Counted from the first letter of the stretch, positions 154 to 21,485 are shown. The stretch is DNA of 64,000 nucleotides from Spirochaetia bacterium (GCA_029880285.1 JAOUOS010000009.1:871-64870), one strand, 5' to 3'. The notes: a model not told the origin generated them from the letters alone. Numbers and translations: made by a program.

Positions 154-155
154 AA

Positions 156-1202: not shown

Positions 1203-1206
1203 TCAT

Positions 1207-1745: not shown

Positions 1746-1821
1746 TATCAGGTATGATTTGCCGTACATCTCAAATTTATTGGAACCAAAATTAAAATTG
1801 AATTTACGCTGTCAAAAATAA

Positions 1822-3788: not shown

Positions 3789-3798
3789 TGGTTTTTAT

Positions 3799-5018: not shown

Positions 5019-6149
5019 TTAAATATAACAAGATGGATCTTCTTCCCACATATCATTATAAACCGCGAGAGCTCTTTCTCTGTGAGAGCCTCTGCAAATT
5101 TCAACATAATCGCAGTTTTTGCATTTGCCCTTTAAAAATTTAGTTCTAATTCGTAAACTCTCTATTAAACTGTTTTCTAATATTTCAGATAAATCTTTTT
5201 CAAGTAAATTTCCGCAGGTTGAAGTCTGCCAAAATTGATCAGGATGAACATTCCCTTTATAGTCGATGTTCAATAGTTTTTCGCCCGCAGTATTACCGCC
5301 TCTTTTTTTTAACAAATCATAAATTAAATTGGCTGAAGATTCTTCAAAGTTTTCTTTCGCGTATAAATATAAATAAACTCCATCGGCATCATTACCCCCT
5401 GTGACAATATTTAAAGGGATATTGTTATCAATATATTCTAAAGATTTTTCAAATATAAAGTTCATTAAGTTTTTAGTTTCTATTTTTTGCACATCATATT
5501 TTGAAAACGCCTTTCCTCTGCCGCCGTAAACCAAATGAGAAAGATAAAATCTGTGAATATTATTTTCAATGGCCAAGTTTAACATATCACCAAGCTGGGC
5601 ACTGTTTTTATCAGTAAGGGTAATTCTAATTCCCGTTTCAAGACCGGCATTTGCCGCGTTTTTAATACCTTCTAATGCCTTTAAAAAGGCGCCAGACATT
5701 CCTCTGTATGAATCGTTGAAATCAGACAATCCGTCTATACTTACGCCCACATAATTAATACCCGATTTTTTCAGGTTCTGAGCTTTTTCTTTTGAAATTA
5801 AAACGCCATTACTTGAAAGATGACAATGAATATTTTTTTTTGCCGCGTACTCAATTATATTAAAAACATCATCTCTTAAAAGAGGTTCGCCTCCTGAAAA
5901 AATTATAATTTTTATGCCATAATCAGAAAGTTTATCGATAATTTTATACATTTCACTAGTACCTAATTCATCATTATTTTTTTTTAATTTAGCAGAAGCG
6001 TAACAATGAGGGCATGTCATATTGCATTCATTTGTAATGTTCCATACAATAACCGGCGGCATATTTTTATGAAACCGAGGTATATCTTTTTTTACGATTT
6101 CATCTGAATTTTTTAAAGCGTACCGAAGAATTTGAGTGACACTCAGCAT
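5019..6149 (-). CDS. nirJ: Radical SAM/SPASM heme d1 (NirJ) or Ahb-pathway (AhbC-like) enzyme
   Basis: VWNITNECNMTCPHCY, FSGGEPL, RFYLSHLVYGGRG, VHPDQFW, SPASM cysteines, WEEDPSCY. Adjacent to nirF. Confidence 0.8.
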   Translation of the reverse strand: MLSVTQILRYALKNSDEIVKKDIPRFHKNMPPVIVWNITNECNMTCPHCYASAKLKKNNDELGTSEMYKIIDKLSDYGIKIIIFSGGEPLLRDDVFNIIEYAAKKNIHCHLSSNGVLISKEKAQNLKKSGINYVGVSIDGLSDFNDSYRGMSGAFLKALEGIKNAANAGLETGIRITLTDKNSAQLGDMLNLAIENNIHRFYLSHLVYGGRGKAFSKYDVQKIETKNLMNFIFEKSLEYIDNNIPLNIVTGGNDADGVYLYLYAKENFEESSANLIYDLLKKRGGNTAGEKLLNIDYKGNVHPDQFWQTSTCGNLLEKDLSEILENSLIESLRIRTKFLKGKCKNCDYVEICRGSHRERALAVYNDMWEEDPSCYI

Positions 6150-6164
6150 TTTTTTTTAGTTTTC

Positions 6165-6194
6165 TTGACAGACCGAAATATATCGGTTTATAAT
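6165..6194 (+). promoter_or_regulatory. Consensus sigma70 promoter for the MMPL operon with an operator-like palindrome in the spacer
   Basis: TTGACA (6165-6170), 18 nt spacer containing ACCGA-N6-TCGGT, TATAAT (6189-6194). Confidence 0.7.
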
Positions 6195-6239
6195 CGAAAT
6201 TGACACATGCTGTAAATTAAATATATTAAAAAAAAATTG

Positions 6240-6261
6240 TACCGAATTTATAAATTCGGTA
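6240..6261. promoter_or_regulatory. 22-bp perfect palindrome, operator-like
   Basis: TACCGAATTTATAAATTCGGTA, with the same ACCGA/TCGGT arms as the promoter-spacer site. Confidence 0.6.
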
Positions 6262-6293
6262 GATTTTAAGAAAAATATGGGTATAATTTCAAA

Positions 6294-9188: not shown

Positions 9189-9200
9189 GAGAATATAAAG

Positions 9201-9938
9201 ATGAAAATAAAACTAAAAAATATGCTGGCTGTATTTTTAATTCTACCAGCACTGGCATTTGCCGATGAAAAAGGCCGTCAAATTATGGAAAAAAATGACG
9301 CGTTAAAAGAGCCCGACACTAGAAAAGGTGTTTCGGTTATGGTTGTTATGAAAGGAGACAGCAAAGAATTAAAAGAATTTGAAATGGTTTCAAAAAAATA
9401 CGGTAAAAAAACTCGATCACGTTCCACATTTTTAAAGCCAACCAGAATTGAATTCTTAAGCTGGTCTGAACCCGGTGAAGACTCTTTACAATGGATTAAA
9501 CTTTCAGGCGGCACAGTAAGAAAAATAGCCTCATCTGATAAAGGCGGTTCTTTTGTTGGCTCTCATTTTTACTACGAAGACATGCAAGATAGAGATATTG
9601 ACGATTTTAACTATAAATATCTTGGTGATGAAAAAGTAAACGGTGAAGATTGTTTTAAAGTAGAATCGGTCAAGAAAAAGGGAACAAAAGTTTACGTAAA
9701 AACAATTGTTTATATAAGAAAGTCAGATTACTTTATGATAAAAGCTGATTTTTATGAAAATAAAGGCCACACAAAAATTCTTGAGGTAGATAAAATTGAA
9801 ACCATCGACGGAATTTTAACCGCCCGAAAAATTACTATGTCAAGAACAGACGGAAAGGGTAAAAGTATAATTTATATTAAAGAGGTGGATTATAATAAGT
9901 CAGTCTCAGATGAATTTCTAAAGAAAGAATCTTTATAA
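9201..9938 (+). CDS. Outer-membrane lipoprotein-sorting protein (LolA-like)
   Basis: Signal peptide, VRKIASSDKGGSFVGSHFYYED motif, typical partner of MMPL genes. Confidence 0.88.
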   Translation: MKIKLKNMLAVFLILPALAFADEKGRQIMEKNDALKEPDTRKGVSVMVVMKGDSKELKEFEMVSKKYGKKTRSRSTFLKPTRIEFLSWSEPGEDSLQWIKLSGGTVRKIASSDKGGSFVGSHFYYEDMQDRDIDDFNYKYLGDEKVNGEDCFKVESVKKKGTKVYVKTIVYIRKSDYFMIKADFYENKGHTKILEVDKIETIDGILTARKITMSRTDGKGKSIIYIKEVDYNKSVSDEFLKKESL

Positions 9939-9943
9939 ATATA

Positions 9944-9965
9944 TAGCTATGGATTTACATAGCTA
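9944..9965. repeat. Palindrome copy 1 (TAGCTATG-GATTTA-CATAGCTA)
   Basis: Core 9946-9963 matches GCTATGGATTTCCATAGC at 17/18 positions. Confidence 0.85.
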
Positions 9966-10019
9966 AAAAAATTTATTGAAAAGTGGTATGTTTTAAATTT
10001 TTAGGGGTATTACATTAAT

Positions 10020-10535
10020 ATGAAATGTAGAAAACAACCACACTGGGTAAAAACAGAAATTAAAAATATTTGGGAAGTACATTTGGATAAATCCATCTGG
10101 AAAAAGGTAAAATTAGCGGCTAAAATACATAATAAAACATATTCATGGATTGTTCGATACTGTGTTTTTAAGTTAGCTAACAAGAAAAGCCTCCAATGGA
10201 CAAACGAATTGTTGAATATTAATTATAAACTAAAAATGAACGAAATACAAACAAAACACCGTCATATGCTTTGTTTATACGGCGACGATGAAATATTATT
10301 AAGAAATAGTGCTTTAATATTAGGTATTAGTATTTCTAAGCTTATACGAATTTCAATAATTTTATATTTAGAAAAGTTTTTTCAAAACAAAGTTAACAAA
10401 AAAGAATTATTCTGGTACGGTATAAAGTTATTTTCGAAAATAAAAAAATTTAGGAGTCTGAAAAATAATTTAATTGCTATGGATTTCCATAGCCATAAAA
10501 AATTCCTAATAGAAGAATATTGGGGATTTCAATAA
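10020..10535 (+). CDS. Putative tandem ribbon-helix-helix DNA-binding protein (Leptospira DUF1564-like)
   Basis: Two beta-alpha-alpha-like repeats: WEVHLDKSIWKKVKLAAKIHNKTYSWIVRYCV and RHMLCLYGDDEILLRNSALILGISISKLIRISI. Family assignment is inferred. Confidence 0.55.
   Translation: MKCRKQPHWVKTEIKNIWEVHLDKSIWKKVKLAAKIHNKTYSWIVRYCVFKLANKKSLQWTNELLNINYKLKMNEIQTKHRHMLCLYGDDEILLRNSALILGISISKLIRISIILYLEKFFQNKVNKKELFWYGIKLFSKIKKFRSLKNNLIAMDFHSHKKFLIEEYWGFQ
10476..10493. repeat. Palindrome copy 2 GCTATGGATTTCCATAGC (inside the RHH gene, encodes AMDFHS)
   Basis: Exact match to the copy at 12133-12150. Confidence 0.9.
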
Positions 10536-10556
10536 CCAAAAACCCGGAGAAATAAA

Positions 10557-11963
10557 ATGAAACATTTTTTAATTTTTGCATTACTTGTACTAAATCTATC
10601 GGCGCAGGGGGTTTCTGAAGAAGAGATGGACTCTCTTTTTTTAGAGGGTAAAGAAAACGAGACTCTTTCGGTACCTGAGTCTTCTTCAAAGTGGGATTTT
10701 TTTGGTTATTTTGAAAGTGAAAATTTTTTTTCAATCAGCAGACAGCTTGGTGGTAAAAACCCCGCAGAAAGCGATATTGTAAAAATAGAAACAAGAGCCC
10801 GAATAAACAGTAAATATGGCACCGATTTTTTTTACGGCAAGGCCTCGGCAGACATTTATTTTTATCCGGTTTATTATGCCGCTGTTAATCCGCAAAACTC
10901 TGGTGAAATAGATGCTTATGAATTATATATAGCCGCCGGAGAAAAATTACAGTTTAAAATAGGCAAACAGGTTTTCAACTGGGGCAGTGCCGATGCTTTC
11001 AGGGTAGTAAACTACGCTGATCAAAGAGATTTGCGTGAAATGTTTTTGAAAGAAGAAGACGAAAGGTATCGCGGAGTTTTCGCGCTCGATTTTAAATATA
11101 TTTTTTCAGATTTTAGTATAGAAACTTTTTTTATACCTGTTCCGGCAAAACCGCTTTTACCGGCCGAAAAAAGTTTTTGGGCGCTTCAACCTGAAAATGA
11201 AAGCGAAATGCCGGTTAAAATGGATATGAGTGAATCTGAAAAATTATTATTAAAAAATGGGGCTTTTGCGGTAAGAAGCGGAGGTACTTTTGGTTTTCTT
11301 GATATTTATTTAAGTTATTTTCACGGACAAAATAATAGTATTGTTTTTTATCCTCAAATTACTATTGATATGGCTACTCAGGCCCCCGCATCTGTTATTA
11401 TCAAACCCGATTTTTCAAAAGTAAATAAAGCGGGTGTCGATTTAGCGTTTAGCATAGAAAAGCTCGCCTTAAGAGCCGAGGCCGTGTATACGCATGATCA
11501 AACCGCGGTCTATAAAGATGAAAATGAAACAACAGTAATTAATACCGATATGACCGCGAATGAAATGACTCTTGAAAAAAACCGCGAAAAGACGCAATAT
11601 TTTTCATATACGACAGGTGCCGACTATAACATCTGGGGCAGTAACGGTAGACTTTTAATTGAATACGCGTCATCTTTCTATATTAAAAATTCTAATAAAT
11701 ATGAAGAAGAATTTTTCAGTAATTTTCTTCTTATTTCATTAGAAGACCGCTTTTTTAACGAATATCTTGAACTAAAAGCCATGTCTATTTTAAGGCTTGC
11801 CAATGATGTCGCATACATTCCCGGTTTAACTATTACCTACAATTTTCAAAACGGCCTAAAGCTTACGGGCGGCCTTATGCTTATATATGGTTATCAAGAC
11901 GATATGCTTTCTATGTTTGATAATCATGATATCGCCTATTTTAGAGCCAGAATGGATTTTTAG
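10557..11963 (+). CDS. Outer-membrane beta-barrel protein (DUF1302-like), partner of MMPL/LolA-like genes
   Basis: Signal peptide, IGKQVFNWGSAD motif, amphipathic strands, C-terminal Phe (ARMDF). Confidence 0.75.
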   Translation: MKHFLIFALLVLNLSAQGVSEEEMDSLFLEGKENETLSVPESSSKWDFFGYFESENFFSISRQLGGKNPAESDIVKIETRARINSKYGTDFFYGKASADIYFYPVYYAAVNPQNSGEIDAYELYIAAGEKLQFKIGKQVFNWGSADAFRVVNYADQRDLREMFLKEEDERYRGVFALDFKYIFSDFSIETFFIPVPAKPLLPAEKSFWALQPENESEMPVKMDMSESEKLLLKNGAFAVRSGGTFGFLDIYLSYFHGQNNSIVFYPQITIDMATQAPASVIIKPDFSKVNKAGVDLAFSIEKLALRAEAVYTHDQTAVYKDENETTVINTDMTANEMTLEKNREKTQYFSYTTGADYNIWGSNGRLLIEYASSFYIKNSNKYEEEFFSNFLLISLEDRFFNEYLELKAMSILRLANDVAYIPGLTITYNFQNGLKLTGGLMLIYGYQDDMLSMFDNHDIAYFRARMDF

Positions 11964-12134
11964 CGCAATAATATGCGATTTATTAATAAAGTACTGGCGA
12001 AATAGGCCAAGTGTATTTCTAATATTGCCAAACGCGTTATCGGCTGTTTTCATATCTCCCTTTTTTAGTTCTTTAATATCAACATTCAATTTCATTAGAA
12101 ACTTGTGAAACTCCTCATGGCCTATGCCGGTGGC
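11962..12134 (-). pseudogene. Possible 5'-truncated gene remnant (helical, ATGIGHEEFHKFL...LGLFRQYF)
   Basis: The open frame extends upstream of ORF 11856..12095 through the palindrome to a stop. It resembles the C-terminal half of small DnrO-like proteins (from memory, unverified). Confidence 0.3.
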
Positions 12135-12166
12135 TATGGATTTCCATAGCTGTCATAAAAATGACA
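12133..12166. repeat. Palindrome copy 3 GCTATGGATTTCCATAGC plus adjacent hairpin TGTCAT-AAAA-ATGACA
   Basis: Exact 18-bp match to 10476-10493, followed directly by a second inverted repeat. Confidence 0.9.
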
Positions 12167-12279
12167 AAAAAAATGGAAAAAATATAAATAGATACTTATA
12201 ATTATTATAGGTATTAAATGAATACTTTCTTTAAATTATGATCAACTTTGATTATAAAATAAAATCTTAAGGAGAGTGT

Positions 12280-12315
12280 ATGGGCGATTTACGAAGTTTT
12301 TTGAAAGTTTCGTAA
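12280..12315 (+). CDS. Candidate leader peptide MGDLRSFLKVS
   Basis: Strong SD AAGGAG before the ATG. Overlaps the 5' arm of a 13-bp stem (12288-12300 with 12359-12371). Confidence 0.4.
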   Translation: MGDLRSFLKVS

Positions 12316-12399
12316 CAGTTCACTATTTCGTCAAATAAAATATAAATTGATGCTTCTGAAAACTTCGTAAAACGCGAAATAATTTTTAAGGAGCAAAAT

Positions 12400-15132
12400 A
12401 TGAAAAAGTGCTTAATGTTAACGGCATTGGTTATTAGCGCTTTTGTATTCTTGGGTTGTACCATTGAAGGTCTTGGAGATATAGGTATTACCCCTACCCC
12501 CACTGAAAATTGCGGCAACGGATCAATTGAAGGTACAGAAGTATGCGATGACGGCAATGCTATAACTGAAACAAAATGCGATTACGGTACCGAAACCTGC
12601 ACGGCTTGCGACGCTTCATGCAAGAATGTATTAAATTTAACAGGTTTATACTGTGGCGACGGCGTATGCTCAGCTAATTTTGAAAATGACACAGCTTGTC
12701 CCGCTGATTGTTTCGCAGCTAATCCTGTATGCGGCGATGGTATCGCAGAAGGCGCTGAAGTTTGCGACGATGGTAACACAATTACAGAAACCGCTTGCGC
12801 TTATGGTACAGAAACTTGTACCTTCTGTAACAATTTATGCGATACAGAGCTATTTTTTACAGGTGAATTCTGCGGTGACGGAACATGTAACGGCCCAGAA
12901 GATACCGCTTCATGCCTAACAGATTGTCCAACAACATGCGGCGATGGTATTGTAGAAGGCGCAGAAGTTTGCGACGATGCTAACACAATTACAGAAACTG
13001 CATGCGCTTATGGTACAGAAACTTGTATCTTCTGTAACGATATGTGTAATACCGAGCTATTTCTTTCAGGTGATTTCTGCGGTGATGGTGCCTGCAACGG
13101 TCCTGAAGATACTAATTCTTGCCTAACAGATTGCCCAACAACATGCGGCGATGGTGTATGTAATGGAACAGAAACTTATGGAACTTGTTCTACAGATTGT
13201 CCTGATGGTGACAATACCTATGAAAGCGCAACAAGTATTGCTGTAGGCAGCAGTGCGGTGGGTTTTATTGATACGTTTGGCGATCATGATTACTTTTCGG
13301 TTACTATGGCAGCTGACCAGACAATTGTAATTACCACTGATGACGGCAATGGCTGTAATCAATTTGATACCGAACTGTATCTTTTTGATTCAGACGGCAT
13401 AACCCAGTTAAGTATGAATGATGATTATACAGGCTTATGTTCACAAATTACCTATACAAATACATCAGGAGCTGTAAAAACAGTTTACTTTTATATTGCC
13501 CATTATGCTGATAACAACACTGGTGCATATACTGTAGCTGTTATTATGCCCGTAGTTTGCGGCGATGGTATTGTAGAAGGCGCCGAAGTTTGCGACGACG
13601 GCAACACAATTACAGAGACCGCTTGCGCCTATGGCACAGCAAGTTGTACCGCTTGTAACGCGGCTTGTTCCAGTGTATTAACCTTAGCTGGCATGTATTG
13701 CGGTGATGGCACATGTAACGCGGGTTACGAAGACACTGCTTCTTGTGCTGTTGACTGCCCCGCGGCAGATACATCCCCGCCTGTGTTTAGCAACATATAT
13801 TACACCGGCGCAGGTTCAGGAGCCGGTGGAGCATTCACTGTTGGTGATACTATTACTTTATTTGCTGATGTTACCGATGCCTCAGGCGTGTCTTTCGCAG
13901 AATTGTATGTGTTTCAGGCAGATCTAATGAATTATGCAGGTTACTGTAACGCGTCTTTAATAGGCGGCAATACATATTCCTGCGCCATTACGGTACCCGC
14001 GGGATACATACCAAACGGTACAGAACACATACTGCCTTACGCGATGGATGTATTAGGTTACGCCGACTATTACTATTTTGATACATATGTATCGTCAACC
14101 TATTACACCCGTTACTGGGATGGCACTATGACAACAATACCAATAGTATTAGTACCTATGACAGAGCCCGCTGTTTGCGGCAACGGAGTTATCGAAGGCG
14201 CAGAAGCCTGTGACGACGGCAATACAATCAGTAACGACGGCTGTTCATCTGTTTGTCAATTTGATACAGATACAACACCGGCTGCGTATAGTAATATTTA
14301 TTACACCGGAACAGGTTCAGGAACCGGCGGAGCCTTTATAGAAGGTGACACTATTACATTGTATGCTGATGTAACCGATTTTTCAGGAATATCGTCTGTT
14401 ACTTTATATGTTTATCAGGCTGATATTTTCGATTATCCCGGTTACTGTACCGCAGCCTTAATAGGCGGTGATACATACTCATGCAGCTTTACGATTTCAG
14501 CGGGTTACGTGCCTAATGGCACTGAACATATAATAGTAGCCGCAACAGATAGCGCGGGTAACTATGAATTTTACTATTATGATACGGCCGTATCGTCAAT
14601 ATACTATACAATGTATTTTGCGGGTATGGTCACAACAACTCCTATCGTTTTTGTGCCAATTACAGAAGCTGTTACTTACGTAAAAACTGGCGATTACGTT
14701 GAATACGCGAACACTAGCGGTTTCAGCGCCAACTATTTATTGGGCCAAAAGGTTACTGTATCTTCAAATATGACATTAACCCATATGGGCTTAATAACTA
14801 AAGCGGCCAGCGCCGCGGGACAATGGGCGCTTTATACCAATAATACCGATTTACCCGGTACATTAATAGCGAATACGGCGCAGCATTCTGTATTAATGGG
14901 CGACCAAATGTACGCCATAGTTCAGGGCAGTGTTTCACTAAGCGCTGGAACTTACTGGATTATGGGTGTATATAATCCCAGTGCTTCTATGGCTGTAGAT
15001 ACAACAGTAACAACAAATAAAATAGCCTATATATCGTTTGGTTTTGGCGGCGCGTTACCTGCCACTTTTCCCAATCCAAGCGTATACAACGGCACTCGCT
15101 TCAATTACTATTTATACGGTACAAGTCCGTAA
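12400..15132 (+). CDS. Cysteine-rich modular surface lipoprotein 1 (Myxococcus-type Cys repeats, PPC-like domain, two Ig-like modules, distinct C-terminal domain)
   Basis: Lipobox FLGC, repeated CG(D/N)GxxEGxExCDDGN (DUF4215-type), DHDYFSV...DTELYLFD PPC-like domain, DTxPP-initiated Ig-like modules. Confidence 0.88.
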   Translation: MKKCLMLTALVISAFVFLGCTIEGLGDIGITPTPTENCGNGSIEGTEVCDDGNAITETKCDYGTETCTACDASCKNVLNLTGLYCGDGVCSANFENDTACPADCFAANPVCGDGIAEGAEVCDDGNTITETACAYGTETCTFCNNLCDTELFFTGEFCGDGTCNGPEDTASCLTDCPTTCGDGIVEGAEVCDDANTITETACAYGTETCIFCNDMCNTELFLSGDFCGDGACNGPEDTNSCLTDCPTTCGDGVCNGTETYGTCSTDCPDGDNTYESATSIAVGSSAVGFIDTFGDHDYFSVTMAADQTIVITTDDGNGCNQFDTELYLFDSDGITQLSMNDDYTGLCSQITYTNTSGAVKTVYFYIAHYADNNTGAYTVAVIMPVVCGDGIVEGAEVCDDGNTITETACAYGTASCTACNAACSSVLTLAGMYCGDGTCNAGYEDTASCAVDCPAADTSPPVFSNIYYTGAGSGAGGAFTVGDTITLFADVTDASGVSFAELYVFQADLMNYAGYCNASLIGGNTYSCAITVPAGYIPNGTEHILPYAMDVLGYADYYYFDTYVSSTYYTRYWDGTMTTIPIVLVPMTEPAVCGNGVIEGAEACDDGNTISNDGCSSVCQFDTDTTPAAYSNIYYTGTGSGTGGAFIEGDTITLYADVTDFSGISSVTLYVYQADIFDYPGYCTAALIGGDTYSCSFTISAGYVPNGTEHIIVAATDSAGNYEFYYYDTAVSSIYYTMYFAGMVTTTPIVFVPITEAVTYVKTGDYVEYANTSGFSANYLLGQKVTVSSNMTLTHMGLITKAASAAGQWALYTNNTDLPGTLIANTAQHSVLMGDQMYAIVQGSVSLSAGTYWIMGVYNPSASMAVDTTVTTNKIAYISFGFGGALPATFPNPSVYNGTRFNYYLYGTSP
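12730..13160 (+). repeat. 207-bp (69 aa) tandem repeat within lipoprotein 1
   Basis: Units start at 12730, 12937 and 13144 (third partial). A related copy starts at 13558. Confidence 0.85.
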
Positions 15133-15161
15133 TATAAACATACAGATATTAAGAATGTTAT

Positions 15162-15191
15162 AAGGGGAAGTCTCAAACTTCCCTTTTTTTT
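15162..15191 (+). terminator. Rho-independent terminator of lipoprotein 1
   Basis: AAGGGGAAGT-CTCAA-ACTTCCCTTT followed by a T run. Confidence 0.85.
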
Positions 15192-15222
15192 ATTTATTGG
15201 CCGGCAAGGGCGTTCCGCCTTA

Positions 15223-15309
15223 AAAACAACAAAAAATACAAAAAAAAGAGAAAAATTACATTTTTTTGTTTACATTTTTAACCGACATTGTAATATGTCA
15301 CAAAATGTG
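15223..15309 (+). promoter_or_regulatory. Duplicated 87-bp promoter block, copy A
   Basis: One mismatch to 17606-17692. TTTACA-N16-TAATAT with GACAT/ATGTC inverted repeat over the -10. Confidence 0.8.
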
Positions 15310-15500
15310 CAGAGTAAATTAAAAAATTACGAAAACACAATAAATTAAACAATAAATTAAATGAGAAGGTCTGAAAAATCTTACGACAATGCGACAAATA
15401 GTATATATCTTAGATTTATAAAGTTTCAAAATCAACGGTTTATTCTATAAATTTTATTCTTAATATTTTTTATTTTCTTCTCATAATATAAGGAGTATAA

Positions 15501-17102
15501 ATGATGAAAAAACGACTAATAATAATAGCGCTCATGTTCAGCGCTTTTATCTATATGGGTTGTCAAATAGAAGGTCTTTCTGTAGGCGGAACCTGTAACA
15601 ATAATGGTTTATGCGATAGCGGCGAAACTACCGCTTCATGCGCCGCAGATTGTCCTGTAAATAATACTGACAATACCGACAATACCGACAATACTGACAA
15701 TACAACAACGGCTGTTTGCGGCAATGGTGTAATAGAAGGGACTGAAGCATGCGACGAAGGCAGCGAAACCAGTACTTGCACGGCCCTATGTCAAGTTAAA
15801 GGCCCAAGCGGTGAAGTTTGTGGTGATGGTATACATGAAGGCATTGAAGTCTGTGACGATAGTAATACGGTTACTGAAACCAATGCAGACTGTGCTTATA
15901 ATACAACTTGTACAGATTACTGTAACAGTGACTGTACTACAGCATTAACACTAACCGGTGGTTATTGCGGCGACGGTATAATAAATGGGCCCGAAGAATG
16001 CGATGGCGAGGCAGATTGTGCAGGTGATTGTACCATTATTGCAGGCGGCGCTGACACAACACCACCAACCATTACTAATATTAATTTCTCAGGCACTATT
16101 GCCATGGGCAATTATGTATTAGTAACTGCAGATATTACAGATGCGTCAGGCATTGGCAATATTGGCTGGTTTAATTTATACGATGATTATGGTAATTGGC
16201 TAGGTGATTGTTCACCATACTTTTTTACCGGCAACACCTATGGCTGTGATATCTATGTTTATAATACTCCGGCAATTTCATATGGGTATGTTGAAATTTA
16301 TGCTGAAGATACATACATGAACGGGATCTACGGTTATGGTTACTGGTCAGGCGGCGGCGGTGATGTTTGCGGCGACGGCGCATGCACAGGTACTGAAACA
16401 AATGCAACATGCGCGGCAGACTGCTCGGCAGACACAACACCACCTGGCATTTCTGGTATTGGTTTTTACGGCACGCCAACAGGTGCTGGAGGCGCATATA
16501 TGATGGATGATTCAATTACCATGTACGCCACAGTCACTGATGAATCAGGTGTTGGATATGTATGGTTATCACTTTATGACGATTTCTGGTATAATTTAGC
16601 AGGGTGCTATGCTTTTGATATGGGCGGCGGTTACTATGAGTGCTCAACGACAATAAGTATCTTACCAGCTACAACATCAGGATTTATTGAGGTATTCGCC
16701 CAAGATAGTTCAGCAAATTGGAATTATACTTGGGAGTACTCTGCTTCTATTGTGCTGTTAGATACAACATTTGTACCACCCGCTACCATTGGAACCCTTA
16801 CCGCAAATGGAGGCTGGTATTCATATTCACTAGCTCAAATTGAATACGTGCAGGTTAATGTAACTGCTGGAACTTCATACACAGTATACTGGGACGATAG
16901 CTGTTGTGATGGTTCTGGTGCTTATACAGCAGATATTGCAGCCAGCGCTTATAATCCCGATGGATCTTCCATTTTTACATTCGAGGATTCTGGATATATG
17001 TATGGGTATTCGTTTACAGCAAGTCAAACGGGTTATGTTTATATTAAACTTGATCCCTACTGGTCAACTGGTACTGTAGGGGTTCAGGTAACCAGTCCGT
17101 AA
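15501..17102 (+). CDS. Cysteine-rich modular surface lipoprotein 2
   Basis: Lipobox YMGC, CG(N/D)G...ExCD repeats, two divergent DTTPP Ig-like modules, C-terminal YTVYWDDS..GSG.YT.DI PPC-like domain. Confidence 0.88.
   Translation: MMKKRLIIIALMFSAFIYMGCQIEGLSVGGTCNNNGLCDSGETTASCAADCPVNNTDNTDNTDNTDNTTTAVCGNGVIEGTEACDEGSETSTCTALCQVKGPSGEVCGDGIHEGIEVCDDSNTVTETNADCAYNTTCTDYCNSDCTTALTLTGGYCGDGIINGPEECDGEADCAGDCTIIAGGADTTPPTITNINFSGTIAMGNYVLVTADITDASGIGNIGWFNLYDDYGNWLGDCSPYFFTGNTYGCDIYVYNTPAISYGYVEIYAEDTYMNGIYGYGYWSGGGGDVCGDGACTGTETNATCAADCSADTTPPGISGIGFYGTPTGAGGAYMMDDSITMYATVTDESGVGYVWLSLYDDFWYNLAGCYAFDMGGGYYECSTTISILPATTSGFIEVFAQDSSANWNYTWEYSASIVLLDTTFVPPATIGTLTANGGWYSYSLAQIEYVQVNVTAGTSYTVYWDDSCCDGSGAYTADIAASAYNPDGSSIFTFEDSGYMYGYSFTASQTGYVYIKLDPYWSTGTVGVQVTSP
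15663..15703 (+). repeat. 9-bp in-frame tandem repeat (AATACYGAC)x4.5 encoding an NTD linker
   Basis: aatactgac aataccgac aataccgac aatactgac aatac. Confidence 0.9.
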
Positions 17103-17127
17103 CATAAAAAAAGTAAATGGAACAACT

Positions 17128-17156
17128 AAAAAAGCCGGCTTATGCCGGCTTTTTTT
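17128..17156 (+). terminator. Rho-independent terminator of lipoprotein 2
   Basis: AAAAAAGCCGGC-TTAT-GCCGGCTTTTTTT, identical to 20912-20940. Confidence 0.92.
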
Positions 17157-17394
17157 ATTTTTGTATCCATAACTCTTTGTAAAAACACATCTCTTAATGA
17201 TCGCGAAAGTGGGTAACAATTACTTGCATAATATATTCTCAATTGACGCGAAAAGTCATTCCGTTGCCCGTTTTCAAATGCACAATACTTGATGCAAAAT
17301 CTCTTGAAATTTTTCTACTAATAAATTCCCGTACCGCATTACCCGCGAAAGCTGGTATAAGTAAAGAAATCAGGGAAAAACCCACCCGACCACA

Positions 17395-17463
17395 GTCATT
17401 CCCGCTCCGCACCTAAGCCTGTGCCCGCGAAAGCGGGTACGGCATAAACTCCAGCGGGAATCT
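17395..17463 (+). repeat. REP/MITE-like palindromic element with a nested hairpin insertion
   Basis: Outer GTCATTCCCGCT...AGCGGGAATC with inner GTGCCCGCGAAAGCGGGTAC (17421-17440). Degenerate relatives near 17199 and 17325-17357. Confidence 0.75.
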
Positions 17464-17605
17464 ATAATTAACCCATCATACACGGCTAGCATTTTAAAAA
17501 AAATGGAAAAAATACACATGCTTTATTATATTTTAATAGATCTGAAAAAGTTTACACCTATCAAGTAATGCAAATGTTTTCTATACCGTTACATAATAAG
17601 GCAAG

Positions 17606-17692
17606 AAAACAACAAAAAATACAAAAAAAAGAAAAAAATTACATTTTTTTGTTTACATTTTTAACCGACATTGTAATATGTCACAAAATGTG
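17606..17692 (+). promoter_or_regulatory. Duplicated 87-bp promoter block, copy B
   Basis: One mismatch to 15223-15309. Confidence 0.8.
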
Positions 17693-17740
17693 TGAAGTAA
17701 TTTAAAAATTGCGAAAACACAATAAATTTAACGGGAGGGT

Positions 17741-17848
17741 ATGAAAATTTTCATGAAAAATAGAATATTTCATAGGTCTAAAAAGTTTCAAAATAAACAG
17801 TTTATTCTATTAATTTTATTCGTAAAATTTTTTCTGCTCATCCAATAA
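17741..17848 (+). CDS. Candidate 35-aa upstream ORF MKIFMKNRIFHRSKKFQNKQFILLILFVKFFLLIQ
   Basis: SD GGGAGG directly upstream. A related frame at 15361-15450 shares KFQN(K/Q)(Q/R)FIL. Confidence 0.3.
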   Translation: MKIFMKNRIFHRSKKFQNKQFILLILFVKFFLLIQ

Positions 17849-17867
17849 CAAAAAAGGAGTAAAAAAT

Positions 17868-20800
17868 ATGAAAAAACGACTATTAATAATAGCGCTCATG
17901 TTCAGCGCTTTTATCTACATGGGTTGTCAAATAGAAGGTCTTGGAGAAATAACGGCGACCGACACTGGTAAAACTGAGTGCGGTAACGGTGTTTTAGATG
18001 CTGGCGAAGCTTGTGACTCTTTCGGCCAAAACACGACAACATGTAACGCTAATTGTACGGCGCCTGTTTGCGGCGACGGTCACGTAAATGACGCGGTTGG
18101 CGAAAAATGCGACGACGGCAACACTATTAATGAAGAAAATTGTGATTATGGTGAAGCTGAATGTACAAGATGTGGTTCACAATGTAAAGTCGAAATAAGT
18201 CTAACCGGCAGCTATTGCGGTGATGGTGTTTGGGATGAAGCCAATGGCGAGCAATGTGATGATGGCAACACATCATCAACCGATTCATGTACAGTTGAGT
18301 GCATAACAGTAATCCCAGATACACCTGTTTGCGGCGACGGTCAGATAACTGGTACTGAAGTGTGTGACGATGGTAACAATGTAAATGAAGAAAATTGTGA
18401 CTATGGCACTGCAACATGTGAAACTTGCAATGCTGATTGTTCGGCACCATTAAGTTTAACCGGCGAATACTGCGGCGACCTTATTTGTAATGGCCCTGAA
18501 GATAGCTCTTCATGCGTAACAGAGTGTCCCGTAAACTGCGGCAATGGAACTTTAGATGAGGGCGAAATTTGTGACGACGGCAATACTACAGAAGAAACTG
18601 AGTGCGCGTATGGCACATCTACATGTACTACTTGCAATAGCAATTGTACCGCCGAGCTAAATTTAACCGGTGACACATGCGGCGATGGAGTAACTAACGG
18701 CCCAGAAGTTTGTGACGATGGCAATACAGTAACAGAAACAAATGCAGACTGCCCTTACGGTACAACTTGTACAACTTTCTGTAACGACACTTGTAGCACA
18801 CAACTAACCTTAACTGGTGCTTCATGCGGCGATGGCACATGTGATTCTGCTGACGGCGAAACAACAGCTTCTTGTGCTGGCGACTGTCCTGCTGCAGGTG
18901 TATGTGGTGACGGTACCCAAGACACAGGCGAAGCTTGTGACGATGGTAACACTACCACTGAGGTTGCCTGCTCTTATGGTACTGCAACATGTGAAACTTG
19001 CAATGCTGATTGTTCTGCACCATTAAGTTTAACCGGCGAATACTGCGGCGATAGCGTATGTACAGCTAGCGCTGGTGAAGACAATGTGACTTGTGCGGTT
19101 GATTGCCCTGTAGTTTGCGGTAATAGTGTAGTTGAATCAGGTGAAGCTTGCGACGACGGTAATACAGCATCTAACGATGGTTGTTCATCAACATGCCAGT
19201 TTGATACTGATACGATGGGCCCAGCTTTTAGTAATATTTACTATACAGGTACAGGCTCTGGAACAAGCGGCGCCTTTGTTGCAGGCGATACTATTACAAT
19301 GTATGCTGATGTGACTGACTTTTCAGGAATTAGTTTTGTTAATTTGTATGTAATGGGTGCTGATTTTTCAAGTACTGCAGGGTATTGTACTGCTGCTTTA
19401 GTAAGCGGCAATACATATTCATGTACTCTAACTATTCCGGCGGGTTTTGTGCCAAATGGTACAGAAACGGTAGTTCCGTATGCAGAAGATACAAACTTTA
19501 CATATGAAGCATACGTCTATAACACTGCAAATTCGACAACTTACTATTCTACCGACGCTACTTATCTGGTAACAGATATAGGTTTAGTTTTTGTACCAAT
19601 GGAAGCGCCTCCTGCGCAGGTCTGTGGCAACGGTACAGTAGAAGGAACAGAAACATGTGACGACGGTAACACAACATCAAACGACGGCTGTTCAGCGGCT
19701 TGTCAGTTTGATACTGATACAACACCACCAACCTATAGTAATATTTATTACACAGGTACAGGCTCAGGTGCCGCAGGCGCTTTTTTACAAGGTGATTCAA
19801 TTACAATGTATGCCGATGTAACAGACTTTTCAGGCATTTCAAGTGTAACACTGTACATAGTTGATGCTGATATTATGAATATTGTTACTTCTTGTTCAGC
19901 CTCGCTGGTAAGCGGCAATACTTATTCATGCGCCATTACGGTCCCCGCGGGATACATACCAAACGGTACTGAACACATACTCCCATTTGCTAACGACACA
20001 TTCGGATATGCTGACTACTTGTATTACAATACGGCGATGTCGTCAACATATTATACATTGTGGAATGCTGGTACTGTAACAACAACACCAATAGTTTTTG
20101 TTCCAATGGATGTACCGGCACAAGTTTGCGGTGATGGCGTAGTTGCCGGCTCTGAACAATGTGACGATGGCAACACAACTGCTGGCGATGGATGCAATAG
20201 TACATGCCAAATGGAGTTTGCTGCTGGCGGGGCAATAGTACCGGGTAATGTTACCGGCAGTACAGCCTATGGTACTTCTGATTACACTACCTTTTTGCAC
20301 ACCAACACGGGCGAGTTTTTCACTTTTACAGCAAATGGTACAAGTTCATATGCTGTTTTATGGGATGACTCATATAGCGGCAGTGGTGCATATACTGGTG
20401 ATATTTTGATGATTGGTACCAACTCTGCAGGAACTCAAATAATCTATCAAGACAGTGGTTATCTCTATCCTGCGATTATTACGCCCATAGCTGGTACGGT
20501 CACTCTTGAGACAAACCCTTATTATAGCGCTGGTACGGTAGGTATTAATGTACTGCCCTATAATACAATCACGGTAAACGGCGGCTGGTATTCTTATAAC
20601 TTGCCTGTAACTTCCGGCAGTATATTAATTGCTTTTTCAGTTACTTCTGGCCAAACTTGTACCGTAAACTGGGATGACTCTTATGAAGGTACAGGGACCT
20701 ATAGTGGTGACATCTGGATGGCTGCTTATCAGGGCAACCCTGGTGCCACACCATATTTTAACTTGGTAGACTCAGGTTATTATACAGGACAAACATTTAC

Positions 20801-20885
20801 GGCAACTGCTACAGGTACTGTGTATCTTGAAGCAAATGCTAACTGGTCCTCTGGTTCACTGGGTGTTAGTGTAAGCTGCCCATAA
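17868..20885 (+). CDS. Cysteine-rich modular surface lipoprotein 3
   Basis: First 75 nt almost identical to gene 2. Many CGDG/CDDGN repeats, two Ig-like modules homologous to gene 1, two WDDSY-type C-terminal domains homologous to gene 2. Confidence 0.88.
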   Translation: MKKRLLIIALMFSAFIYMGCQIEGLGEITATDTGKTECGNGVLDAGEACDSFGQNTTTCNANCTAPVCGDGHVNDAVGEKCDDGNTINEENCDYGEAECTRCGSQCKVEISLTGSYCGDGVWDEANGEQCDDGNTSSTDSCTVECITVIPDTPVCGDGQITGTEVCDDGNNVNEENCDYGTATCETCNADCSAPLSLTGEYCGDLICNGPEDSSSCVTECPVNCGNGTLDEGEICDDGNTTEETECAYGTSTCTTCNSNCTAELNLTGDTCGDGVTNGPEVCDDGNTVTETNADCPYGTTCTTFCNDTCSTQLTLTGASCGDGTCDSADGETTASCAGDCPAAGVCGDGTQDTGEACDDGNTTTEVACSYGTATCETCNADCSAPLSLTGEYCGDSVCTASAGEDNVTCAVDCPVVCGNSVVESGEACDDGNTASNDGCSSTCQFDTDTMGPAFSNIYYTGTGSGTSGAFVAGDTITMYADVTDFSGISFVNLYVMGADFSSTAGYCTAALVSGNTYSCTLTIPAGFVPNGTETVVPYAEDTNFTYEAYVYNTANSTTYYSTDATYLVTDIGLVFVPMEAPPAQVCGNGTVEGTETCDDGNTTSNDGCSAACQFDTDTTPPTYSNIYYTGTGSGAAGAFLQGDSITMYADVTDFSGISSVTLYIVDADIMNIVTSCSASLVSGNTYSCAITVPAGYIPNGTEHILPFANDTFGYADYLYYNTAMSSTYYTLWNAGTVTTTPIVFVPMDVPAQVCGDGVVAGSEQCDDGNTTAGDGCNSTCQMEFAAGGAIVPGNVTGSTAYGTSDYTTFLHTNTGEFFTFTANGTSSYAVLWDDSYSGSGAYTGDILMIGTNSAGTQIIYQDSGYLYPAIITPIAGTVTLETNPYYSAGTVGINVLPYNTITVNGGWYSYNLPVTSGSILIAFSVTSGQTCTVNWDDSYEGTGTYSGDIWMAAYQGNPGATPYFNLVDSGYYTGQTFTATATGTVYLEANANWSSGSLGVSVSCP

Positions 20886-20911
20886 CAAAAATATATAAAT
20901 AAAGAAAACCT

Positions 20912-20940
20912 AAAAAAGCCGGCTTATGCCGGCTTTTTTT
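20912..20940 (+). terminator. Rho-independent terminator of lipoprotein 3
   Basis: AAAAAAGCCGGC-TTAT-GCCGGCTTTTTTT. Confidence 0.92.
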
Positions 20941-21389: not shown

Positions 21390-21436
21390 AGCTCGAGATT
21401 TTCCGGTAACACGATTTATTGCTATTTTATTCTAAC

Positions 21437-21485
21437 AGATTCCCGTTGGAATTTATGCCGCACTATGATGCGGTACGGGAATGAC
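21437..21485 (-). repeat. REP/MITE-like palindromic element, uninterrupted copy
   Basis: Minus strand GTCATTCCCGTACCGCATCATAGTGCGGCATAAATTCCAACGGGAATCT aligns to 17395-17463 without the nested hairpin. Confidence 0.75.

What the first reader, a model, noticed from the sequence alone, without database searches (positions are those of the whole stretch)
12400..20940. Array of three modular Myxococcus-type Cys-rich lipoproteins: candidate undescribed variable adhesin or recognition system in a spirochaete
Seen: three tandem paralogs (910, 533, 1005 aa), each a separate unit with its own leader and terminator. The shared plan is a lipoprotein signal plus C(T/Q)IEGL, a stalk of acidic CG(D/N)GxxxxxExCDDGN repeats, DTxPP-initiated Ig-like modules separated by single Cys repeats, and a terminal beta domain ending TSP or SCP. 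Module number and order differ: gene 1 has an internal PPC-like domain and a unique tip, gene 2 has one WDDS-type tip, gene 3 has two. Established: these repeats (DUF4215 / Myxococcus cysteine-rich repeat) typify surface proteins of myxobacteria, and leptospiral Lig proteins are tandem Ig-like lipoproteins with shared 5' regions. Inference: a disulfide- and Ca-stiffened stalk displaying exchangeable binding heads for prey, host, kin or surface recognition.
Basis: partly seen in the sequence, partly recalled or inferred. Interest (0 to 1): 0.8.

Follow-up and report, generated by a model that had tools for sequence, protein, structure and literature searches.

The report
Cysteine-repeat stalk-and-head lipoproteins, spirochaete expansion
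Three neighbouring genes of an uncultured sediment spirochaete encode probable lipid-anchored proteins in which a chain of small cysteine-rich beads and antibody-like domains carries different sugar- or protein-binding-type end domains; the building blocks are catalogued but unstudied, so this is a clear but fairly ordinary case, unusual mainly for how far the family has multiplied in this lineage.

Summary
Three same-strand ORFs (910, 533 and 1005 aa) each have a signal peptide ending G-C, the motif C(T/Q)IEGL, Cys-rich acidic repeats (TIGR02232/DUF4215), Big_7-type Ig modules, their own terminator hairpin and a C-terminal beta domain.

New here:
- The 'WDDS' heads are a diverged PPC/collagen-binding-type beta-sandwich (pLDDT 94.6; Z 10.9 to ColH CBD). 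They have no Pfam model of their own but match 2,798 protein clusters.
- Gene 1's tip is a lectin-like sandwich shared with phage tail-fibre heads (Z 18.4, 14.2).
- The array is 3 of 33 Cys-repeat ORFs, about 3.5% of this genome.
- The repeat is rare in other spirochaetes: 3 of 200 sampled genomes.
- In the one family-level relative, the same site beside pepP holds different genes built from the same modules.
- One Ig module is a recombination mosaic.

No reverse transcriptase was found in the genome, no recombinase in the five flanking genes scanned, and no donor cassettes or population variation were seen. So 'variable system' is not shown.

Function is inferred: stalk-and-head surface or extracellular binding proteins.

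This scan has met the same protein kind several times on other DNA (Myxococcota, CPR, DPANN).

Verdict: new members of a known, uncharacterised kind.

The parts
12400..15132 (+). gene 1 (910 aa): lipoprotein-type signal, Cys-repeat stalk, PPC, Cys unit, Ig, Cys repeat, Ig, lectin-like tip
   Evidence: ORF; TIGR02232 70.8 bits, DUF4215 42.9 bits, Big_7 35.3 bits
12400..12462 (+). g1 signal peptide up to the lipobox-like FLG-C (Cys21), followed by TIEGL
   Evidence: Read from the sequence. No signal-peptide predictor was available. LspA is present in the genome.
12511..13215 (+). g1 Cys-rich acidic stalk: three long ~69-aa units plus short CGDGxC units. It includes a 207-nt tandem duplication at 12729-13155.
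   Evidence: Regex repeats at residues 38, 111, 180; TRF period 207, 2.1 copies, 87% matches
13207..13569 (+). g1 internal PPC domain
   Evidence: PF04151 27.1 bits against cut-off 25.9, E 8e-6
13765..14175 (+). g1 Ig-like module 1 (starts ADTSPP)
   Evidence: Big_7 weak on its own (17.8 bits); aligned with the other five modules
14176..14265 (+). g1 single 4-Cys repeat between the Ig modules
   Evidence: Best TIGR02232/DUF4215 stretch at residues 592-620
14266..14679 (+). g1 Ig-like module 2
   Evidence: Big_7 best stretch at residues 644-711, 35.3 bits for the protein
14662..15129 (+). g1 C-terminal lectin-like beta-sandwich tip
   Evidence: No Pfam family. Model pLDDT 90.7. Z 18.4 to 9jwb_Z, 14.2 to the Cwp84 lectin-like domain, 14.1 to the Bxb1 tail tip. 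60 viral models at E<=0.001.
15162..15186 (+). terminator hairpin after g1
   Evidence: 10-pair stem plus T run
15223..15578 (+). g2 upstream region plus signal-peptide DNA, shared with g3
   Evidence: 82.7% identity over 358 aligned nt to 17606-17942
15501..17102 (+). gene 2 (533 aa): signal, (NTD)n, two Cys repeats, Ig, short Cys unit, Ig, one WDDS head
   Evidence: ORF; BLASTP to g1 and g3; TIGR02232 18.5 bits, below cut-off
15663..15703 (+). 9-nt tandem repeat (AATACCGAC x4.6) encoding NTDNTDNTDNTD
   Evidence: TRF score 68
16047..16775 (+). g2 Ig-like modules 1 and 2 (both start ADTTPP), with a short CGDGAC unit between them
   Evidence: Alignment with the g1/g3 modules; Big_7 15.5 bits, below cut-off
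16758..17099 (+). g2 WDDS head (PPC-superfamily beta-sandwich)
   Evidence: Model pLDDT 94.6. Z 10.9 to ColH CBD 3jqw, 10.4 to ColG 5iku, 9.8 to PPC 5sv5.
17128..17155 (+). terminator hairpin after g2 (same sequence as after g3)
   Evidence: 12-pair stem; copies also in C90, C13 and C18
17606..17942 (+). g3 upstream region plus signal-peptide DNA, shared with g2
17868..20885 (+). gene 3 (1005 aa): signal, long Cys stalk, (Cys repeat + Ig) x2, Cys repeat, two WDDS heads
   Evidence: ORF; TIGR02232 151.4 bits, DUF4215 109.2 bits, Big_7 26.5 bits
17979..19205 (+). g3 Cys-rich acidic stalk (7 strict repeats plus short units)
   Evidence: Regex positions 68-417
19206..20123 (+). g3 Ig module 1, Cys repeat, Ig module 2. 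Ig2 is a mosaic of g1-Ig2-like and g1-Ig1-like DNA.
   Evidence: Max chi-square 19.6, reached in 1 of 2000 permutations; 93% identity to g1-Ig1 in one 60-nt window
20235..20882 (+). g3 tandem WDDS heads 1 and 2
   Evidence: tblastn and HMM hits; rows 2 and 3 of alignment A1
20912..20939 (+). terminator hairpin after g3

Best explanation
The three genes are paralogous stalk-and-head lipoproteins.

How each most likely works:
- Each is probably exported by Sec and lipidated at the Cys that follows the signal peptide.
- Each probably folds in an oxidising compartment into a rod. The rod is made of small disulfide-locked acidic 4- to 6-Cys modules (TIGR02232/DUF4215) followed by Big_7-type Ig modules.
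- The rod holds one or two beta-sandwich binding domains at the far end. In genes 2 and 3 these are a diverged PPC/collagen-binding-type domain. In gene 1 there is an internal canonical PPC plus a lectin-like domain of the kind found at the tips of phage tail fibres and on polysaccharide-degrading enzymes.

The most likely job is to bind polymers, particles or other cells outside the cell (adhesin or capture protein), with different heads giving different ligands.

The array belongs to a lineage-specific expansion that grew by duplication, module shuffling and occasional gene conversion. It is not a programmed variation device.

Shown: the ORFs, domain families, folds of both head types, copy numbers, distribution, the mosaic, and the presence of LspA, DsbB and VKOR.
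Inferred: lipidation, disulfides, calcium binding, surface exposure, ligand binding.
For: - Architecture and family scores.
- Head model: pLDDT 94.6. Best neighbours are ColH and ColG collagen-binding domains at Z 10.9 and 10.4, and B. anthracis PPC at Z 9.8 (also Foldseek).
- PF04151 passes its cut-off in 3 of 10 proteins that carry arrays of this head. The head weakly hits a canonical PPC in contig C56 (E 6e-5).
- Tip model: pLDDT 90.7. Z 18.4 to cyanophage A4 chain Z, 14.2 to the Cwp84 lectin-like domain, 14.1 to the Bxb1 tail tip, 13.1 and 12.8 to the polymer-binding modules of esterases.
- 60 viral models match the tip at E<=0.001, including collagen-repeat and minor tail proteins.
- The same tip is fused to Kelch/glyoxal-oxidase, S8 peptidase, GH5/GH9 and T9SS-tail proteins among 50 hits.
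- A PPC segment of a Grimontia collagenase binds collagen (PMC6168687; abstract in the search listing only).
- A diatom adhesive-trail protein carries 12 DUF4215 repeats (bioRxiv 10.1101/2023.03.06.531300; one passage read).
- LspA (123 bits), VKOR (56.9 bits) and DsbB (43.6 bits) are present.
- No enzyme domain appears in any of the three proteins.
- Expansion and rarity.
Against: - There is no experimental datum for any DUF4215 protein. The three term searches found 1, 3 and 0 papers.
- A shared fold does not show function. PliG lysozyme inhibitors (Z 10.4) and GOLD domains (Z 9.9) tie with the collagen-binding domains for the head.
- The lipobox (F-L-G-C, Y-M-G-C) departs from the classical L-[AS]-[GA]-C pattern (recalled, not from a call) and was judged by eye only.
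- Many spirochaete lipoproteins are subsurface (general knowledge).
- The structure of the Cys repeat itself was not modelled. Its only solved relative is one copy in pappalysin-1 at a marginal E of 0.0014.
- No RNA data were examined.
Confidence: 0.6

Rival explanations
1. Programmed variation system. The array and its paralogues act as a cassette repertoire whose heads and Ig modules are actively exchanged, giving variable adhesion or recognition within a population.
For: - Mosaic Ig module in g3 (max chi-square 19.6, reached in 1 of 2000 permutations).
- g2 and g3 share 358 nt of 5' region at 82.7% identity.
- The site beside pepP carries different gene sets in G000 and G001.
- 33 paralogous ORFs.
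- A 9-nt in-frame tandem repeat in g2.
Against: - No RVT_1 reverse transcriptase was found in the 92%-complete genome.
- No recombinase family appeared in the five flanking proteins scanned, and no promoterless cassettes were seen.
- Module DNA identity is only 57-68%, too low for frequent homologous exchange.
- Each gene has its own terminator.
- The pieces found in two other sediment runs are identical to the window (0 or 1 other letters), though these are contigs at 2-4x depth.
- The mosaic triplet was chosen after seeing the protein alignment.
Confidence: 0.1
2. Periplasmic or released structural/protective proteins rather than adhesins. Examples would be subsurface lipoproteins that bind peptidoglycan or inhibit lytic enzymes (PliG-like heads), or secreted matrix proteins that stiffen a sheath or biofilm.
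For: - PliG is tied with the collagen-binding domains as nearest fold (Z 10.4).
- Many spirochaetal lipoproteins are subsurface (general knowledge).
- The Peregrinibacteria paper suggests rigidity or attachment roles for similar Cys-rich proteins (PMC4736985; one passage read).
Against: - No sequence similarity to PliG (13-14% identity in the structural alignments).
- The same heads occur in arrays of up to 22 per protein and on collagen-like stalks.
- The tip fold is typical of distal phage-fibre and enzyme-accessory binding modules. Both point outward.
Confidence: 0.2
3. The C-terminal PPC-like domains are export or processing pro-domains, as in pre-peptidases, and are removed after secretion. 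They would not be functional heads.
For: - PPC is named for C-terminal domains cleaved from secreted peptidases (Pfam description; E495 protease forms with 0-2 PPC domains, PMC3327674, abstract in the search listing).
- The heads are strictly C-terminal in g2 and g3 and share a conserved ...V(T/S)(S/C)P end.
Against: - No peptidase or other cargo domain is present.
- Heads are internal or tandem in other paralogues: 5 in a C42 frame, 5 in a C2 frame, and up to 22 per protein in other proteins.
- g1 ends in a different fold with a similar ...TSP end.
Confidence: 0.1

Closest known systems
DUF4215 (PF13948) / TIGR02232 'cysteine-rich acidic repeat' proteins, mostly of Myxococcota. Sources annotate them as 'DUF4215 domain-containing', 'cysteine-rich repeat protein', 'fibro-slime domain-containing' or 'DVUA0089 family'.
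   Same: Same repeat, passing the curated cut-offs in g1 and g3. Same overall logic of a long Cys-repeat chain plus varied beta domains. 6003 proteins match g3 at E<=1e-5 among the 8000 scored.
   Different: - The host is a spirochaete, where the repeat is rare: 3 of 200 other sampled genomes, each a single copy.
- The partner modules here are Big_7-type Ig, WDDS heads and a lectin-like tip.
- NCBIfam returned only TIGR02232, not a DVUA0089 model, at E<=0.01.
- The best match from outside this genome's own data covers only 36% of g3 at 43% identity (P0003).
PPC domain (PF04151), including the collagen-binding domains of clostridial collagenases ColG and ColH
   Same: The g1 internal domain is a member. 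The WDDS heads share the fold (Z 10.9, rmsd 2.4 over 99 residues to 3jqw). Relatives carrying head arrays reach the PPC cut-off in 3 of 10.
   Different: The heads of g2 and g3 get no PF04151 hit even at E<=5 and carry their own W-D-D-x-x-x-G signature. No protease is attached. Collagen is not an expected ligand in sediment.
Lectin-like domain of C. difficile Cwp84 (PF18560), and the distal domains of phage tail-fibre, tail-tip and decoration proteins (cyanophage A4 chain Z, Bxb1, phi812)
   Same: Same fold as the g1 tip (Z 18.4, 14.2, 14.1, 12.9). Same position at the C-terminal end of a fibrous or repetitive stalk, as in phage collagen-repeat proteins. The Atlas lists PF18560 as the nearest named cluster at 0.91.
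   Different: Sequence identity is 13-20% only, with no Pfam hit. Here the domain sits on a bacterial lipoprotein, not a virion or an S-layer protease.
Leptospiral Lig proteins (LigA/LigB; recalled from general knowledge, no call)
   Same: Spirochaete lipoproteins with tandem Ig-like domains, and paralogues that share their 5' part.
   Different: Lig proteins use Big_2 domains, and none was reported here at E<=0.01. Lig proteins lack Cys-rich repeats and PPC heads. g3 matched nothing in 0 of 7 class-level genomes of family f8.
Pappalysin-1 (PAPP-A), residues ~866-894
   Same: The only solved structure containing a copy of this repeat motif (CGDG..E.CDD.N..DGC...C), with profile E 0.0014. It is also named beside Myxococcus repeats in PMC4736985 (passage read).
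   Different: A single copy inside a metalloprotease. The score is marginal, and the structure was not inspected here.
Diatom adhesive trail protein Ca5255
   Same: Carries twelve DUF4215 repeats and was recovered from an adhesive secretion (bioRxiv 10.1101/2023.03.06.531300; one passage read).
   Different: Eukaryotic. Its other domains were not compared. The adhesive role of the repeat itself is not shown there.

Membership tests
TIGR02232 / PF13948 (DUF4215) cysteine-rich acidic repeat proteins | Score over the curated cut-off (20.8 bits NCBIfam; 27 bits Pfam) | tested here: met
   g1 scores 70.8 and 42.9 bits; g3 scores 151.4 and 109.2 bits. g2 alone fails (18.5 bits; no Pfam hit) but has 2 strict motif copies.
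TIGR02232 / PF13948 (DUF4215) cysteine-rich acidic repeat proteins | Repeated unit with conserved C-G-x-G ... E-x-C-D-D ... C ... C spacing | tested here: met
   In 16 aligned repeats, C1, G2, E10, C12, D13 and C23 are invariant.
Big_7 bacterial Ig domain (PF17957) | Score over the gathering cut-off of 24.1 bits | tested here: met
   g1 35.3 bits, g3 26.5 bits. The g2 modules score 15.5 bits at best, below the cut-off, but align with the others.
[quoted passage not shown] | Score over the 25.9-bit cut-off | tested here: met
   For the g1 internal domain only: 27.1 bits.
PPC superfamily: WDDS heads of g2 and g3 | Sequence match to PF04151 | tested here: not met
   No PF04151 hit at E<=5 for any of the three heads. 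Support is indirect only: 3 of 10 related head-array proteins pass.
PPC superfamily: WDDS heads of g2 and g3 | PPC/collagen-binding-domain beta-sandwich fold | tested here: met
   pLDDT 94.6. Z 10.9, 10.4 and 9.8 to 3jqw, 5iku and 5sv5. PliG and GOLD are tied within 1 Z unit.
Cwp84-type lectin-like domain (PF18560) / phage fibre distal domain: g1 tip | Sequence match to a curated model | tested here: not met
   No such family at E<=5. Atlas feature score 0.91, a lead only.
Cwp84-type lectin-like domain (PF18560) / phage fibre distal domain: g1 tip | Shared fold | tested here: met
   Z 14.2 to 4ci7_A residues 331-497; Z 18.4 to 9jwb_Z.
Bacterial lipoproteins (Lgt/LspA pathway) | Signal peptide with a lipobox Cys | tested here: inconclusive
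   An n-region with K/R, a hydrophobic core of about 14 residues and G-C at positions 20-21 are seen by eye. No predictor was available. LspA is present in the genome.
Leptospiral Lig family | Tandem Big_2 (PF02368) domains | tested here: not met
   PF02368 was not reported at E<=0.01 for any of the three proteins.
   The NCBIfam scan at E<=0.01 returned only TIGR02232.
Diversity-generating retroelement targets | A DGR reverse transcriptase in the genome | tested here: not met
   0 matches to PF00078 in the genome, which is 92.4% complete.

The most novel reading that the evidence does not exclude
An uncultured sediment lineage of Leptospira-related spirochaetes has built a combinatorial surface 'capture' repertoire that takes up about 3.5% of its genome. 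The repertoire uses Cys-repeat/Ig stalks and interchangeable heads. One head type is shared with phage tail-fibre tips. The other is a large PPC-derived family with no curated model. Heads and Ig modules are reshuffled by gene conversion at hot spots such as the pepP site, so that strains differ in what they can bind (particles, polymers or prey cells).
Probability: 0.15. Interest if true: 0.6.

Novelty: new member of a known kind. Interest (0 to 1): 0.35.

Why it matters
DUF4215 stalk-and-head proteins are among the commonest large secreted proteins of sediment and soil bacteria, yet none has a tested function.

This locus offers compact, separately expressible examples of 533 to 1005 aa. Their two head types fold confidently and can be made alone for binding screens.

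The WDDS head deserves a curated model of its own. It matches 2,798 clusters, some with up to 22 copies per protein, and current Pfam mostly misses it.

The expansion in one spirochaete lineage, against near absence in the rest of the sampled phylum, gives a natural contrast. It could help show what ecological trait these proteins confer.

Tried and rejected
1. Population variation.
- Only Logan contigs were available. X1 (0.99 of the words) may be the source sample. X2 and X3, also labelled sediment metagenomes, hold short pieces at 2-4x depth with 0 or 1 other letters.
- The listed 'joints' have sides of 20-39 nt at 85% likeness and fall between repeats, so I treat them as cross-matches of paralogous repeats.
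- One minor contig set differs at 15 sites plus two indels across 16098-16295 (depth 3.1-3.4 against 29-33). It could be a rarer strain or a paralogue.
- Nothing can be concluded about variability or habitat range from this.

2. DGR or reverse transcriptase: none found, although 14 FGE-sulfatase-type domains exist, some inside DUF4215 giants.

3. Recent transfer from high-GC Myxococcota is rejected. The raised GC (0.43-0.44) lies in codon position 2 (0.50-0.54 against a background of 0.315). GC3 is 0.32-0.34 against 0.246 +/- 0.053. The older origin of the repeat is unresolved; I built no repeat phylogeny because 30-residue units carry too little signal.

4. The search for related loci with g2 in genome contigs gave only one weak Myxococcota locus (35% over 120 residues) and named no relative.

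5. P0002 (905 aa) first looked like the closest homologue of g3. It is g1 itself read from Met6, on an 8,558-base contig of run X1, the probable source sample, so it is not independent.

6. A direct PDB sequence search with g1 and g3 gave 0 hits at E<=1.

7. Promoter scan: no enrichment.

8. Literature: 'DUF4215' 1 paper; 'TIGR02232 / Myxococcus cysteine-rich repeat / myxo_disulf_rpt / cysteine-rich acidic repeat' 3 papers; 'Leptospira + cysteine-rich repeat + lipoprotein' 0 papers. Supplementary tables of the diatom and Peregrinibacteria papers were not seen.

Full report
WHAT IS THERE

Three ORFs lie head to tail on the + strand at 12400-15132 (910 aa, g1), 15501-17102 (533 aa, g2) and 17868-20885 (1005 aa, g3).

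Each starts with a short basic n-region, about 14 hydrophobic residues and G-C, followed by (T/Q)IEGL. The proteins hold 56, 29 and 69 cysteines and are very acidic, with 108/66/129 Asp+Glu against 11/5/7 Lys+Arg.

A strong hairpin terminator follows each gene (15162-15186, 17128-17155, 20912-20939). The hairpins after g2 and g3 are identical.

Sigma-70-like sites are not enriched (35 found, 33.3 expected).

g2 and g3 share about 358 nt of upstream region plus signal-peptide DNA at 82.7% identity. g1 shares only 88 nt at 72%.

DOMAINS

- g1 and g3 pass the curated cut-offs of TIGR02232 (70.8 and 151.4 bits against 20.8), DUF4215 (42.9 and 109.2 against 27) and Big_7 (35.3 and 26.5 against 24.1).
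- g2 passes none (TIGR02232 18.5 bits). It is clearly paralogous by BLASTP (E 6e-59 to g1, 7e-71 to g3).
- Strict repeat motifs number 5, 2 and 9. Sixteen aligned repeats keep C1, G2, E10, C12, D13 and C23 invariant.
- There are two repeat forms. One is a short 4-Cys form that separates the Ig modules. The other is a long ~69-aa composite form that builds the N-terminal stalk. g1 carries a 207-nt tandem duplication of the long form.
- Scanned alone, the internal domain of g1 is a PPC domain (27.1 bits against 25.9).
- None of the C-terminal domains matches any Pfam family at E<=5.

THE TWO KINDS OF HEAD

I collected 25 copies of the 'WDDS' head from the window, from other contigs of the genome and from four relatives.

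- The model of the g2 head is confident (pLDDT 94.6, pTM 0.87).
- An all-against-representatives structural search puts the collagen-binding domains of ColH (Z 10.9, rmsd 2.4, 99 residues) and ColG (Z 10.4) first. PliG (10.4), GOLD domains (9.9) and the B. anthracis collagenase PPC domain (9.8) are tied within one Z unit. Foldseek gives the same set.
- A profile of the 25 heads matches 2,798 of 1.84 billion cluster representatives at E<=0.001 (1,484 at 1e-10; 353 at 1e-30), with up to 22 copies in one protein.
- Of ten such proteins scanned, PF04151 passes its cut-off in three and is sub-threshold in one. One is a Treponema 'collagen-like protein' with a collagen repeat in front of three heads.

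So the WDDS head is a large, diverged branch of the PPC superfamily that the current Pfam model mostly misses.

The g1 tip is rarer. It gave 4 hits among 887 candidates of similar length, one of them g1 itself. A five-sequence profile found 50 hits among 7,999 longer candidates. In those hits the tip is attached to Kelch/glyoxal-oxidase-type proteins, S8 peptidases, GH5 and GH9 glycosidases, LTD and PKD domains and T9SS tails.

Its model (13-row alignment, pLDDT 90.7) matches:
- chain Z of the cyanophage A4 capsid map, Z 18.4 over 151 residues;
- the lectin-like domain of C. difficile Cwp84, Z 14.2;
- a Bxb1 tail-tip protein, Z 14.1;
- the accessory modules of a carbohydrate esterase and a polyvinyl-alcohol esterase, Z 13.1 and 12.8;
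- a phi812 baseplate protein, Z 12.9.

Sixty predicted viral proteins match at E<=0.001, many of them collagen-repeat or minor tail proteins. The ESM Atlas points the same way, though as a lead only: unnamed Uroviricota clusters at 0.93-0.96, Lectin_like at 0.91 and DUF4082 at 0.89.

Both head types therefore have folds used elsewhere as distal binding modules on fibrous stalks or as substrate-binding modules on enzymes.

GENOME AND LINEAGE

The genome (3.32 Mb, 102 contigs, 92% complete) has two FlaA genes over the cut-off, against 0 of 14 control genomes. This fits the earlier notes that call it an uncultured Leptospira-related spirochaete.

- TIGR02232 gives 133 matches with only 150 of 296 candidates scored.
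- My motif scan finds 227 strict repeats in 33 stop-to-stop frames, totalling 38,639 aa, about 3.5% of the genome.
- HMMs built from the window's modules were run over 3,673 frames of 100 aa or more. The Ig module occurs in 6 frames (the three here, a 1,942-aa frame in C44 and two in C90). The WDDS head occurs in 10 frames and the tip in 2. The HMMs include the sequences they then find.
- Many paralogues also begin with a signal peptide ending in Cys.
- The raised GC of the genes sits in codon position 2 (0.50-0.54 against 0.315). GC3 is only mildly raised, at the 91st-96th percentile. This gives no sign of recent import from a high-GC donor.

DISTRIBUTION

- g3 finds matches in 5 of 41 genomes of the relatives set, G000 included. 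There are 69 matches in the only other genome of the family (G001; best 42% identity over 268 residues). A few occur in three genomes of the order, and none in 7 class-level genomes of family f8.
- TIGR02232 was found in 4 of 201 genomes sampled across the phylum, G000 included. The other three each have one copy in a short frame.
- Outside the phylum, 6003 proteins match g3 at E<=1e-5 among the 8000 scored. Among the 120 best that are listed, those that carry an organism name are mostly Myxococcota and all are uncharacterised.

THE SITE IN THE RELATIVE

- In G001 the pepP orthologue (58% identity) and its RNase-H-fold neighbour are followed directly by one 2,384-aa lipoprotein-type gene. It is built of the same pieces: Cys repeats, Ig, head, Cys, Ig, PPC, Cys, Ig, head, plus an extra C-terminal domain. 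A further DUF4215 gene follows and is cut by the contig end.
- Those genes lie on the opposite strand relative to pepP compared with the window.
- The orthologue of the other flank (DUF1302 protein, 64% identity) lies on a different contig and is followed by unrelated genes.
- So the position beside pepP is shared, but the gene content is not.

EXCHANGE OF MODULES

DNA identity among the four g1/g3 Ig modules is 57-68%. g3-Ig2 follows g1-Ig2 at 26 of the first 31 informative sites. It then follows g1-Ig1 at 47 of the next 74, including a 60-nt window at 93% identity. The max chi-square is 19.6 and was reached in 1 of 2000 permutations.

This fits past gene conversion. The triplet was chosen after I had seen the protein alignment, so the p-value is optimistic.

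TESTS OF AN ACTIVE VARIATION DEVICE

- No RVT_1 reverse transcriptase was found in the genome.
- The five flanking proteins scanned are housekeeping or unknown: a DUF1302 protein, M24 aminopeptidase P, an RNase-H-fold protein and two without a family.
- Public runs gave only contigs. Pieces from two other runs are identical to the window, and no trustworthy joint was seen.

PREREQUISITES OF THE MECHANISM

LspA, a VKOR-family protein and DsbB are all encoded. Lipoprotein processing and periplasmic disulfide formation are therefore possible.

The only solved structure with a copy of the repeat is pappalysin-1, residues about 866-894 (profile E 0.0014). I did not inspect it. Calcium binding remains an inference from the acidic D/E/N positions.

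VERDICT

The best reading is a set of stalk-and-head lipoproteins that bind external polymers, particles or cells. They are members of a catalogued but unstudied protein kind that this scan has already met several times on other DNA.

What is particular here:
- the host lineage and the scale of the expansion in it;
- the identification of the two head folds;
- a shared site with different content in two genera;
- one recombination mosaic.

A programmed variable recognition system is not shown.

Noticed in passing
window 17200-17439 and 17395-17477; also 21425-21485: The g2-g3 spacer holds three copies of a small GC-rich palindrome (CCCGCGAAAGCGGGTA-like). The window has 4 matches against 0.12 expected. 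An ~83-nt element there is 90% identical to a stretch of contig C5. A related ~60-nt element downstream of g3 recurs in C5, C76, C84 and C72. These look like REP/MITE-type dispersed repeats.
   Followed up: partly
window 17128-17155 and 20912-20939: The identical terminator hairpin (AAAAAAGCCGGC-TTAT-GCCGGCTTTTTT) behind g2 and g3 also recurs at three other genomic places (contigs C90, C13, C18). The C90 copy lies just beyond the C90 Ig-module region matched by g3. The 3' ends may have been duplicated together with the genes.
   Followed up: partly
window 15663-15703: An in-frame 9-nt tandem repeat (4.6 copies) encodes NTDNTDNTDNTD near the N-terminus of g2. It is a possible length-variable linker.
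   Followed up: no
window 6294-11963; L036 (G001:C31) 2-4675: Upstream of the array lies a conserved gene group ending in a DUF1302 protein (25.3 bits). In G001 it is preceded by a large multi-pass membrane protein and a small secreted protein. By eye these look like an MMPL/RND-type exporter and a LolA-like protein, but only the DUF1302 gene was scanned. In G001 this group is not next to DUF4215 genes, so the adjacency is probably incidental.
   Followed up: partly
G000 contigs C4 (2433-aa frame) and C65 (2876-aa frame): Giant DUF4215 paralogues carry 2 and 4 FGE-sulfatase/C-type-lectin-fold domains (14 such matches genome-wide). That fold is the usual DGR target scaffold, yet no reverse transcriptase was found in the genome.
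   Followed up: partly
L035 (G001:C40) 5416-12570 and 12743-14032: The G001 giant gene contains a run of about 20 near-identical 32-aa Cys repeats (CGDSVTNTLAGESCDSGGVQTSLCEADCSSPV). The next gene contains a run of near-identical 34-aa repeats. Both look like very recent tandem amplification, unlike the diverged repeats in the window.
   Followed up: no
protein P0213 (cluster with NCBI MDR2501034.1): A Treponema 'collagen-like protein' of 381 aa has a collagen triple-helix repeat followed by three WDDS heads. The same head is therefore carried on a different kind of stalk in another spirochaete.
   Followed up: partly
C-termini of g1, g2, g3 and of many aligned heads and tips (A1, A3): Two unrelated head folds often end in ...(T/S)(S/T/C)P at the very C-terminus, also in proteins of other phyla (for example P0123, P0288, P0296). 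No known sorting signal was matched. The meaning is unknown.
   Followed up: no
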